A DNA stretch of 64,000 bases from assembly GCA_019058275.1 (NCBI GenBank), contig JAHLVW010000015.1, positions 1-64,000 on the forward strand. The letters run 5' to 3'. Shown piece after piece: positions 17,083-17,997 of this stretch; the first letter of the stretch is position 1; each line of letters opens with the position of its first letter. Source of the DNA: Candidatus Heimdallarchaeota archaeon. GTDB taxonomy: Archaea > Asgardarchaeota > Heimdallarchaeia > JABLTI01. The translations under genes were made by a program, and so were the position numbers. The notes below the pieces were generated by a model, which made no database searches, was not told the origin of the DNA, and saw only the letters and a list, made by a program, of their open reading frames with translations.

Positions 17083-17250
17083 CAGGTTTTTGCTAAAATC
17101 GAATTATTTTTTACTGTTTTAAAGAGGTATATGCCACAAAAGTAGTATTATTATTTGATAATTTTATATTAATTATAATAGATAATAATAAATTGTATTA
17201 GTTTGAAGAATATTAACAAGAAACTTGTGAGATAAAAGGTGGCATAAAAC

Positions 17251-17997
17251 TTGAGTGATAACTTAGATGATCTATTGGGTGACATTTATTCATCAAAAAG
17301 TCAGAGTCAAGGGGTAAAAGAATTAGCTTTTTTGATAAACAATCTTTCCCAGCTTCTTCTAAAAGGAATTGCTCAATTAGAAGCTAGAGTCTTAAAATTA
17401 GAACAGCAAACTGGACGTGGTGGACCAGCACCAAGAGCTACAAGTCCAGTAGCATCCCCTACACCAAAAGCTGCATCCCCATTTAGTGCACCAGCTACAC
17501 CAGCCAGAACCCCACCACCCCCACCAAAACCAGCTGCCACTGCTTCTACGGGAACAGGACCAGGATCAGCTACAGAAGCAGCTTCAATGTTAGGTGTGAA
17601 ATTAAAGAAAGCACCTACAAGTACAGCTGCTACACCAGCAGCTCCAAGCCCTTCATCCAGTGATGGACCATCCTTCTTGACAGGTATTGTAAATCCAGAA
17701 GCAAGAACTGGTACAACTCCAGGAGGAGTAAGTACTGCAGGAGGACCAGATGCAGTAGCACCTGCTAGTGCGGGAGGAATAGCTGGCCCAGCAGGTGGTT
17801 TTAGAGGTGAATTAGCAGAAAAATTGGCTAGAAGACGTCAAATGGTGCAAAAACAATTAGATGATGATTTTGATGCTTCAGATTTAGCTGCTACACCTGG
17901 TGAAGAAGCAGAAGTTGTTGAAGAATCAACTAGTAGCGAATTAAAATTAAATCTTGAAGATGAACTTAGAAGTGCATTCTCAAAAATCAAAGGTTAA
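17251..17997 (+). CDS. Pro-rich low-complexity protein with coiled coil, WH2/GAB-like KLKK and LARRR motifs (Ena/VASP- or WASP-like)
   Basis: TTG start after GGTGG; TPPPPPKP, AASMLGVKLKKA and GGFRGELAEKLARRR; acidic stretch; C-terminal amphipathic helix. Confidence 0.65.
   Translation: MSDNLDDLLGDIYSSKSQSQGVKELAFLINNLSQLLLKGIAQLEARVLKLEQQTGRGGPAPRATSPVASPTPKAASPFSAPATPARTPPPPPKPAATASTGTGPGSATEAASMLGVKLKKAPTSTAATPAAPSPSSSDGPSFLTGIVNPEARTGTTPGGVSTAGGPDAVAPASAGGIAGPAGGFRGELAEKLARRRQMVQKQLDDDFDASDLAATPGEEAEVVEESTSSELKLNLEDELRSAFSKIKG

What the first reader, a model, noticed from the sequence alone, without database searches (positions are those of the whole stretch)
17251..17997. Candidate Ena/VASP- or WASP-like actin assembly factor in an archaeon
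Seen, in order: N-terminal coiled coil (aa ~22-53); polyproline TPPPPPKP (87-94); TEAASMLGVKLKKA (108-121); Gly/Ala linker; GGFRGELAEKLARRRQ (182-197); acidic DDDFD..EEAEVVEE; C-terminal amphipathic helix LKLNLEDELRSAF. Established: Ena/VASP has polyPro (profilin site), then GAB/WH2 (GLAAAIAGAKLRKV), then FAB (GGLMEEMNAMLARRRK), then a tetramerising helix; WASP/WAVE/WASH have polyPro-WH2-C-acidic. The motif order and the KLKK and LARRR cores match. Asgard archaea encode actin and profilin, but I know of no described VASP/NPF-type elongation factor. Inference: a profilin-actin-delivering polymerase or nucleation promoter. This is the best candidate for a novel system in the window.
Basis: partly seen in the sequence, partly recalled or inferred. 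Interest (0 to 1): 0.88.

Follow-up and report, generated by a model that had tools for sequence, protein, structure and literature searches.

The report
Asgard candidate actin-binding scaffold protein
This gene encodes a real, conserved, mostly floppy protein of a Heimdall-group Asgard archaeon whose short conserved helices look strikingly like the actin-gripping pieces of animal VASP, making it a good but unproven candidate for the actin-assembly factor that these closest relatives of eukaryotes are not yet known to have.

Summary
In 28 orthologues the motifs are conserved islands (0.86-0.92) between variable linkers (0.33-0.61).

The likeness to human VASP is more than chance within this genome. 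Among 17,530 ORFs this one ranks first for the FAB string, 22nd for GAB, and first for the ordered pair (62 against 45). No shuffle in 20,000 reached the pair score.

It is not a member of Ena/VASP, WASP or WH2:
- The Pfam WH2 model, motif profiles against PDB, and a full HMMER scan of 1.84 billion proteins found no eukaryotic relative.
- The VASP-like residues exist only in one GTDB family. The homologous motifs of the sister family score at background.

The gene is the long form of an undescribed pan-Asgard family (coiled coil, Pro-rich arm, near-invariant C-terminal helix; 231 of 400 genomes). Heimdall lineages add 1-3 'LKK' helices. This scan has flagged the same family on other DNA.

The genome has actin, profilin and an Arp-like protein, but no ARPC2 or ARPC4. 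My reading is an oligomeric multivalent scaffold whose helices dock on actin (about 0.4).

The parts
17236..17250 (+). Ribosome-binding region (GGTGG) ahead of the TTG start
   Evidence: Read directly from the sequence
17251..17415 (+). N-terminal acidic-hydrophobic peptide (SDNLDxLL) and long helix, residues 1-55: likely oligomerising coiled coil
   Evidence: AF2 helices 2-14 and 18-55 with pLDDT above 90. Conservation 0.89. The N-terminal profile A9 hits trimeric coiled coils in PDB, E=4.5e-4 to 0.02. The region is shared with f3 and with the short forms.
17464..17493 (+). Conserved island PKxASPFSAP, residues 72-81
   Evidence: Conservation 0.86; S76, P77 and F78 are invariant
17509..17532 (+). 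Polyproline TPPPPPKP, residues 87-94
   Evidence: P90 is invariant and P91/P92 nearly so in f1. The tract is absent in f3, which has APNLS repeats. PPP(P) tracts are present in most short forms.
17566..17616 (+). Motif A, GAB/WH2-like helix plus LKKA, residues 106-122
   Evidence: A110, A111, M113, L114, G115 and L118 are invariant. AF2 gives a short helix at 107-113. GAB score 26, rank 22 of 17,530. Not scored by Pfam WH2.
17662..17691 (+). Conserved island SGPSFLTGxV, residues 138-147; an ancient PxFLT motif also found in short forms
   Evidence: Conservation 0.88. It aligns with PSEPFLTPPP of the f28 short forms.
17746..17763 (+). Conserved island PDAVAP, residues 166-171; aligns with the tail of the second LKK motif of f3
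   Evidence: Conservation 0.89; alignment A4
17776..17877 (+). Motif C, FAB-like or WASP-C-like helix GGFRGELAEKLARRRQ, followed by the acidic-aromatic DDDFD, residues 176-209
   Evidence: G182, G183, F184, E187-L192, R195, V199, Q202 and D206 are invariant. AF2 helix 184-208. Best FAB match in the genome, score 36, reached by 1 of 20,000 shuffles.
17902..17925 (+). Acidic tract EEAEVVEE, residues 218-225
   Evidence: Read from the sequence; the composition is kept but the sequence varies
17929..17994 (+). C-terminal docking helix SSELKxxLEDELRSAFSKIKG, residues 227-248: the hallmark of the pan-Asgard family
   Evidence: Conservation 0.92. Profile A13 hits 231 of 400 Asgard genomes. The same helix ends a PAC2-family protein in family f6.

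Best explanation
The gene encodes the Heimdall-lineage 'long form' of an undescribed pan-Asgard scaffold protein. Shown: an N-terminal coiled coil, a disordered Pro/Ala/Gly-rich arm, and five to six short conserved islands. Three of these islands are amphipathic helices: motif A (AASMLGVxLKKA), motif C (GGFRGELAEKLARRRQ followed by DDDFD) and the C-terminal helix (ELKxxLxDELRSAFSKLKG). Inferred: the coiled coil makes a parallel oligomer, possibly a trimer. Each arm then presents several weak docking helices. The helices most likely bind the hydrophobic groove and acidic surface of the archaeon's own actin, as WH2/GAB, VASP FAB and archaeal arcadin-2 helices do. The oligomer would therefore gather actin monomers and hold filament ends or sides, acting as a VASP-like elongation, bundling or tethering factor. 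The polyproline tract may recruit profilin-actin. The likeness to VASP is functional analogy or convergence, not shared descent.
For: The gene is real and under selection: 42 orthologues with conserved islands. AF2 predicts helices exactly at the motifs. The FAB-like match is the best in the genome and the GAB+FAB ordered pair is a clear outlier (62 against 45; 0 of 20,000 shuffles). The VASP strings were checked in PMC10340426. With the single sequence, the VASP polyPro-GAB peptide 2pbd_V is the second-best PDB chain, although E=0.8 is not significant. The copy number of the 'helix + LxK[AV]P' motif varies between lineages as WH2 repeats do: none in short forms, one in f1, two in f3, three tandem LKKAPEKEE in f5. 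The N-terminal profile hits trimeric coiled coils, which would give the multivalency a VASP-type mechanism needs. The genome has actin, profilin and an Arp-like protein. Papers up to September 2026 name only profilins and gelsolins as Asgard actin regulators and say nucleation machineries are 'yet to be discovered' (PMC9433394; PMC13716822). Archaeal precedent: the 17-residue C-terminal helix of arcadin-2 binds the crenactin groove with Kd 31 nM (PMC5173319).
Against: There is no binding evidence of any kind. No HMM or profile support for WH2, VASP or WASP. In sister family f3 the homologous motifs score at shuffle background against VASP (GAB median 16, FAB median 14), so the exact LARRR and KLKK matches are lineage-specific. 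The second K of LKKA varies even within f1 (K, P, A, S). The polyproline tract is not family-wide. Several Asgard profilins do not bind polyproline, or bind only at 0.3-3 mM (PMC8410842). The most conserved element, the C-terminal helix, also ends a PAC2-family protein, which points to a hub other than actin. The best, non-significant PDB match of the f3 motif-A/B profile that falls on motif A is CHMP3, not a WH2. Gene neighbourhoods are housekeeping and differ between f1 and f3.
Confidence: 0.4

Rival explanations
1. It is a multivalent SLiM scaffold or tether for a partner other than actin. One example is a MIT-domain ATPase of the ESCRT system, bound through the MIM1-like C-terminal helix. 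Others are a proteasome- or chaperone-related hub, or small-GTPase and membrane machinery.
For: The C-terminal helix fits the spacing ExxLxxxFxxLK, close to the MIM1 pattern as I remember it (my own knowledge, not checked). The same helix ends a PAC2-family protein in f6. The CHMP3 match to motif A is as good as the VASP match. The family core (coil, Pro-rich arm, end helix) lacks the LKK and FAB-like motifs altogether. Earlier scan notes report the tail on Arf-like GTPases; I did not check this.
Against: The C-terminal profile found no MIM or MIT entry in PDB. The R of MIM1 is replaced by A. No partner gene is linked by context. This reading does not explain the outlier GAB+FAB pair score.
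Confidence: 0.3
2. It is a conserved disordered protein with some other role, such as a spacer, a condensate-forming protein or a regulator. Its likeness to actin-binding motifs would then be the chance extreme of Ala/Leu/Arg-rich amphipathic helices.
For: All database comparisons outside the family are non-significant. The VASP-likeness vanishes in f3. The GAB-like score alone is unremarkable (rank 22; 286 of 20,000 shuffles).
Against: The FAB score (1 of 20,000 shuffles) and the pair score (0 of 20,000; 17 points above the next ORF) are hard to dismiss. The islands are strongly conserved, so they do bind something.
Confidence: 0.2
3. It is a WASP/WAVE/WASH-type nucleation-promoting factor whose V-C-A-like region (motif A, motif C helix, DDDFD) activates an Arp2/3-like nucleator.
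For: The order Pro-rich, then helix+LKK, then amphipathic helix with a basic cluster, then acidic tract with an invariant aromatic, recalls V-C-A. An Arp-like actin paralogue exists. One f3 member passes the Pfam cut-off for the WASH subunit CCDC53 (26.9 bits).
Against: ARPC4 and ARPC2 were not found in a genome that is 92.8% complete. The CCDC53 hit is not reproduced in f1 or the short forms and looks like generic coiled-coil likeness. There is no profile match to any VCA chain in PDB.
Confidence: 0.05
4. It is a true evolutionary homologue (orthologue or ancestor) of eukaryotic Ena/VASP EVH2.
For: Only the motif likeness and motif order.
Against: There is no eukaryotic hit in 1.84 billion representatives. 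There is no EVH1 and the coil is at the opposite end. The VASP-like residues are absent from f3 and from the short forms, so they are derived within f1.
Confidence: 0.03

Closest known systems
Ena/VASP EVH2 module with its Pro-rich region (human VASP GAB 223-239, FAB 259-278, tetramer coil 343-380; PMC10340426)
   Same: Both have a Pro-rich tract, then an Ala-rich helix ending in KLKK/KLRK, then GG-helix-LARRR, plus an oligomerising coil. The FAB-like match is the best in the genome.
   Different: This protein has no EVH1. Its coil is N-terminal and probably trimeric, not a C-terminal right-handed tetramer. The GAB-FAB spacing is about 74 residues against about 36. It carries an extra acidic tract and a C-terminal helix. 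There is no detectable homology, and the likeness is confined to one archaeal family.
WH2 domain / beta-thymosin repeats (Pfam PF02205; WASP, WAVE, WIP, Spire, thymosin beta-4)
   Same: A short amphipathic helix followed by L-x-K-[A/V]. Copy number varies from 1 to 3 in tandem between lineages, followed by acidic or basic tails such as PEKEE and DPDEHRKE.
   Different: The motifs are not scored by the WH2 HMM in any of six genomes tested or in Pfam scans of the proteins. The helix-to-Leu spacing differs by one or two residues, and the helix is Ala-rich.
Arcadin-2 of Pyrobaculum (crenactin regulator, PDB 5LY3; PMC5173319)
   Same: It is an archaeal protein whose terminal amphipathic helix is its only actin-contacting element and binds the hydrophobic groove. 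This is a mechanistic precedent for the C-terminal helix here.
   Different: There is no sequence relation. Arcadin-2 is encoded beside crenactin in the arcade cluster, whereas this gene is not linked to actin. Arcadin-2 depolymerises filaments.
WASP-family V-C-A region and the WASH subunit CCDC53 (PF10152)
   Same: Both show an N-terminal helical assembly region, a Pro-rich region, a V-like helix, a C-like helix with a basic cluster, and an acidic tract with an aromatic residue. One f3 member scores 26.9 bits on CCDC53.
   Different: No Arp2/3 subunits were found. The aromatic residue is F, not W. The CCDC53 hit is not reproducible. The extra C-terminal helix is absent from WASP proteins.
WH2-like LKKT-type linker of Asgard two-domain gelsolins (PMC9433394)
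   Same: It is the only actin-touching 'LKKT-like' motif shown experimentally in Asgard proteins (LRRV, LKHV, LVDV).
   Different: There it is a linker between folded gelsolin domains. Here the motif stands free in a disordered arm. No similar segment exists elsewhere in this genome.

Membership tests
Ena/VASP | N-terminal EVH1 (WH1) domain | tested here: not met
   The Pfam scan finds no WH1. The N-terminus is a helix or coiled coil.
Ena/VASP | EVH2 with GAB, FAB and a C-terminal tetramerisation coil in that order | tested here: not met
   GAB-like and FAB-like strings are present in order. The coil, however, is N-terminal, and the C-terminal helix of 21 residues matches no VASP_tetra model.
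Ena/VASP | Detectable sequence homology to eukaryotic members | tested here: not met
   There is no eukaryotic hit among 1.84 billion representatives. 2pbd_V scores only E=0.8, and the hit is lost with the family profile.
Ena/VASP | Binding of G-actin, F-actin and profilin; processive elongation | not testable with these tools
Biochemistry is needed.
WH2 domain (PF02205) | Match to the WH2 profile | tested here: not met
   There is no match at E<=10 on this gene in its own genome, or on homologues in five relatives. Pfam scans of the proteins also give none.
WH2 domain (PF02205) | Amphipathic helix followed by an LKKT/V-type motif with a conserved Leu and a basic residue | tested here: inconclusive
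   A helix at 107-113 is followed by LKKA. L118 is invariant, K119 nearly so and K120 variable. f3 keeps L-x-K-[A/V] invariant. The spacing differs from the canonical form.
WASP-family NPF (V-C-A) | Acidic tail with a conserved Trp, and a cognate Arp2/3 complex | tested here: not met
   The aromatic residue is F207 (Y in two orthologues). ARPC4 and ARPC2 were not found.
WASH complex subunit CCDC53 (PF10152) | Match above the Pfam gathering score across the family | tested here: not met
   One of 30 f3 members passes (26.9 bits against 24.6) and five are sub-threshold. None passes in f1 or among the short forms.
Pan-Asgard coiled-coil / Pro-rich arm / C-terminal helix family (undescribed; flagged earlier in this scan) | N-terminal acidic-hydrophobic peptide plus coil, Pro-rich arm, and C-terminal helix L[RK]xxLxxEL[KR]x[AL]FS[KR] | tested here: met
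   Collinear alignment with short forms from five other GTDB families. Profile A13 hits 231 of 400 Asgard genomes, including this gene at E=1.5e-11.
ESCRT-III MIM1 tail | C-terminal (D/E)xxLxxRLxxL(K/R) helix that binds a MIT domain | tested here: inconclusive
   The spacing fits but R is replaced by A (by eye, with the pattern recalled from memory). No MIM or MIT chain was found by profile A10 in PDB. Binding is not testable here.

The most novel reading that the evidence does not exclude
Asgard archaea have their own family of oligomeric, disordered actin-assembly factors. A pan-Asgard protein (coiled coil, proline arm, groove-binding helix) would deliver profilin-actin or actin monomers to filament ends. 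Heimdall lineages would have expanded it by adding 1-3 WH2-like helices and a FAB-like helix. That would make it a convergent or precursor solution to the Ena/VASP, WASP and Spire logic, predating eukaryotes.
Probability: 0.25. Interest if true: 0.9.

Novelty: new variant of a known kind. Interest (0 to 1): 0.62.

Why it matters
Asgard archaea build dynamic actin-based protrusions and crawl (PMC13716822). The only actin regulators named for them so far are profilins and gelsolins, and papers state that nucleation and elongation machinery is still undiscovered (PMC9433394).

A conserved, single-copy, pan-Asgard protein that combines oligomerisation, a proline-rich arm and actin-motif-like helices is a concrete candidate for that missing factor. 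It is cheap to test with peptides plus actin. If it binds actin, it would show how multivalent short-motif polymerases arose before, or in parallel with, eukaryotic VASP, WASP and formin systems. If it binds something else, it still defines a widespread Asgard docking helix and its hub.

Tried and rejected
1. Complex prediction with the genome's actin (alignment A3), residues 98-135 of this protein (A2) and ATP. This is no evidence either way.

2. The Pfam WH2 model on the own genome and on five relatives found nothing on this gene.

3. Profiles against PDB for the whole protein (A1), f3 motifs A+B (A7), motif C plus acidic tract (A8) and the C-terminal helix (A10). None found a WH2, VASP, WASP or MIM chain. 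The best hits were antibody light chains, CHMP3, Nef and protein A, all non-significant.

4. CCDC53 / WASH subunit lead. One f3 member passes the cut-off, but this is not reproducible in f1 or the short forms. I rejected it as generic coiled-coil likeness.

5. Gene context. f1 synteny is SMC-like, aminotransferase, Rpb5, ferredoxin, 302-aa unknown, this gene, ThiI, 137-aa unknown, ThiL, Pus10. It is conserved only among close relatives. f3 homologues lie between a threonine-aldolase-like gene and a metallo-beta-lactamase gene. No functional inference follows.

6. Paralogous motifs in the own proteome: none found.

7. Fusions of the C-terminal helix to gelsolin, profilin or GTPase domains, claimed in earlier scan notes, were not seen among the listed hits. 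Only a PAC2-family fusion and spurious internal hits in Lon-like and RFC proteins turned up. The hit list was truncated, so this is not a refutation.

8. The ESM Atlas look-alikes were unnamed archaeal clusters of 137-164 aa (scores 0.85-0.87) and an arthropod Mito_fiss_reg cluster (0.75). These are leads only.

Full report
THE GENE. window:17251-17997 (+) is an open frame of 248 codons. It starts at TTG, 8 nt after a GGTGG site, and stops 0-9 nt before the ThiI gene. Its G+C content is 43% in a 33% window because it is rich in Ala, Ser, Pro and Gly. The database holds 42 orthologues, all from Asgard/Heimdall metagenome bins, all named 'hypothetical' and none with a Pfam domain. In an alignment of 28 full-length orthologues, conserved islands (0.86-0.92 column identity) alternate with variable linkers of changing length (0.33-0.61). 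That is the signature of a disordered protein carrying short linear motifs. AlphaFold2 with this alignment predicts helices at 2-14, 18-55 (pLDDT above 90), 107-113, 184-208 and 228-247, and nothing else.

IS THE VASP LIKENESS MORE THAN CHANCE? I took the human VASP GAB and FAB strings. The GAB is printed, and both were checked in PMC10340426. I scored every stop-to-stop ORF of at least 50 aa in the organism's genome (17,530 ORFs) by ungapped BLOSUM62.
- This ORF has the best FAB match in the genome (36, next 34).
- It ranks 22nd for GAB (26).
- It has by far the best ordered GAB-then-FAB pair (62, next 45).
- Among 20,000 shuffles of its own sequence, FAB was reached once, GAB 286 times and the pair never.
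So the resemblance is real at the level of this genome, and it is carried mainly by GG-F-x-x-E-L-x-x-x-LARRR.

IS IT A MEMBER OF A KNOWN ACTIN-REGULATOR FAMILY? No.
- Pfam finds nothing in the protein.
- The WH2 model (PF02205), run over the whole genome and over five related genomes, does not score this gene or its homologues.
- phmmer against PDB places the VASP polyPro-GAB peptide 2pbd_V second, but at E=0.8. The hit disappears when the family profile is used.
- Separate profiles of the LKK motifs, of the FAB-like helix with its acidic tract, and of the C-terminal helix find no WH2, VASP, WASP or MIM chain. One of the top non-significant matches of the LKK-motif profile is CHMP3. That shows how easily such Ala/Leu/Lys helices find look-alikes.
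- A full HMMER search of 1.84 billion representative proteins returns only the family itself.

THE WIDER FAMILY. Among 400 Asgard genomes the full-length profile hits only the window's own GTDB family (f1, 10 of 11 genomes), with weak hits in sister family f3. The f3 proteins are 270-300 aa and about 25-30% identical. They are collinear homologues, found in 27 of 31 f3 genomes. They keep:
- the N-terminal helix (SIDDYLDxLL...);
- a motif A (DLMKAAxxLQKAPE);
- a second, more WH2-like motif B (DIQDVRAGLTKVDPDEHRKER), which in f1 has decayed to GPSFLTG...PDAVAP;
- a motif C (MVLNxEVKDALAKRKSR, then an acidic run, then F-x-P);
- the C-terminal helix.
Instead of polyproline they carry APNLS repeats. 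Against the VASP strings they score at shuffle background (GAB median 16, FAB median 14). The exact VASP-like residues are therefore a derived feature of f1, which argues against common descent with EVH2.

The C-terminal helix led further. Profiles that include it pick up 145-220-aa proteins in many other Asgard families. These are collinear 'short forms': an N-terminal acidic-hydrophobic peptide and coil, a Pro-rich arm often with GPPPPP-type runs and a PxFLT motif, and the helix L[RK]xxLxxEL[KR]x[AL]FS[KR]. The broadened profile A13 matches 231 of 400 Asgard genomes (58 of the 90 high-quality ones; 119 of 135 in the largest family), almost always once per genome. Long forms occur only in f1 (one LKK motif), f3 (two) and f5, where one protein has three tandem GGIxDALANLKKAPEKEE repeats. 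In f6, a PAC2-family protein ends in the same helix. Earlier follow-ups of this scan reached the same 'pan-Asgard long form / short form' picture on other genomes. I re-derived it independently here.

CELLULAR CONTEXT. The genome is 4.12 Mb in 118 contigs and 92.8% complete. It encodes:
- a bona fide actin (379 aa, 448 bits on Pfam Actin, about 60% identical to animal actins);
- an Arp-like paralogue (387 aa, 124 bits);
- a 120-aa profilin, which I found with a profile of Pfam-positive Heimdall-class profilins and confirmed against Asgard profilin structures (E=1e-20 to 5zza_P).
ARPC4 and ARPC2 were not found. Gene neighbours are housekeeping genes and differ between f1 and f3. The f3 genes have their own TATA-like box. 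Context therefore says nothing about function.

LITERATURE. Papers from 2020 to September 2026 describe only profilins and gelsolins as Asgard actin regulators. They state that nucleation machineries 'have yet to be discovered' and list formins and Ena/VASP as eukaryotic additions. Some Asgard profilins bind the VASP polyproline peptide weakly (0.3-3 mM) and others not at all (PMC8410842). Arcadin-2 of Pyrobaculum shows that an archaeal protein can control an actin through a single terminal helix in the hydrophobic groove (PMC5173319).

HOW IT MOST LIKELY WORKS.
- Shown: architecture, conservation, helices, distribution.
- Inferred: the N-terminal coil oligomerises. Its profile matches trimeric coiled coils at E=4.5e-4 to 0.02.
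- Inferred: each flexible arm presents several weak docking helices.
- My preferred reading (about 0.4): these helices dock on actin. Motif A and the C-terminal helix would sit in the groove, and the basic motif C on the acidic filament surface. The oligomer would then concentrate monomers and hold filaments, which is VASP-like in logic but convergent.
- Main rival (about 0.3): the same scaffold serves another hub. This is suggested by the PAC2 fusion, by the MIM1-like spacing of the terminal helix, and by the fact that the family core lacks the LKK and FAB-like motifs.
- An Arp2/3-type NPF and true VASP homology are both unlikely (0.05 or less each).

WHAT COULD NOT BE DONE. 

VERDICT. It is an undescribed family and a concrete, cheap-to-test candidate for an open question. 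I score interest at 0.62.

Noticed in passing
window:13408-13998 (+): The RNA polymerase subunit Rpb5/RpoH gene encodes 196 aa. The Rpb5 C-terminal domain (118-190) is preceded by about 115 residues with weak NucS_C / Mrr_cat (restriction-endonuclease-fold) matches. The same length is seen in relatives (L008, 196 aa). Archaeal RpoH normally lacks an N-terminal domain, so this may be a eukaryote-like two-domain Rpb5.
   Followed up: no
window:16174-17082 (+): A 302-aa protein with no Pfam match lies directly upstream and co-oriented. It is conserved in this position in all f1 relatives examined but is absent next to the f3 homologues.
   Followed up: partly
window:18930-19343 (+): A 137-aa protein with no Pfam match lies between ThiI and the ThiL-like gene. 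It has the same length and position in three relatives.
   Followed up: no
L029:274-1332:+ (genome G049, GTDB family f5): This homologue has GPNL[KS]AGP repeats, three tandem GGIxDALANLKKAPEKEE motifs, an FASILEKRRQ helix and the family C-terminal helix. It is the most WH2-repeat-like member seen, yet has no Pfam match.
   Followed up: partly
L031:140-1045:+ (genome G063, family f6): A PAC2-family protein (82.5 bits) ends in NLKERMNKEMKNAFSRIRKGWDEEKE. That is the same docking helix as the short-form family member of the same lineage (L032). It suggests the helix is a portable module for one hub.
   Followed up: partly
L021:1181-1543:+ (G000 contig C60): The genome's profilin is 120 aa with no N-terminal extension. 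It is missed by the six-frame Pfam search of the genome and scores below the cut-off on direct scan (22.2 against 25 bits). It is clear against Asgard profilin structures.
   Followed up: yes
L002:1474-2637:- (G000 contig C54): A divergent actin-related protein of 387 aa (124 bits on Pfam Actin) exists alongside the canonical actin. Three further weak actin-fold hits (L003-L005) were not examined.
   Followed up: partly
window:10039-11934 (+): A 631-aa SMC_N/AAA_13-like coiled-coil ATPase scores just below the Pfam cut-off (38.3 against 40 bits). It is conserved in synteny in f1.
   Followed up: no
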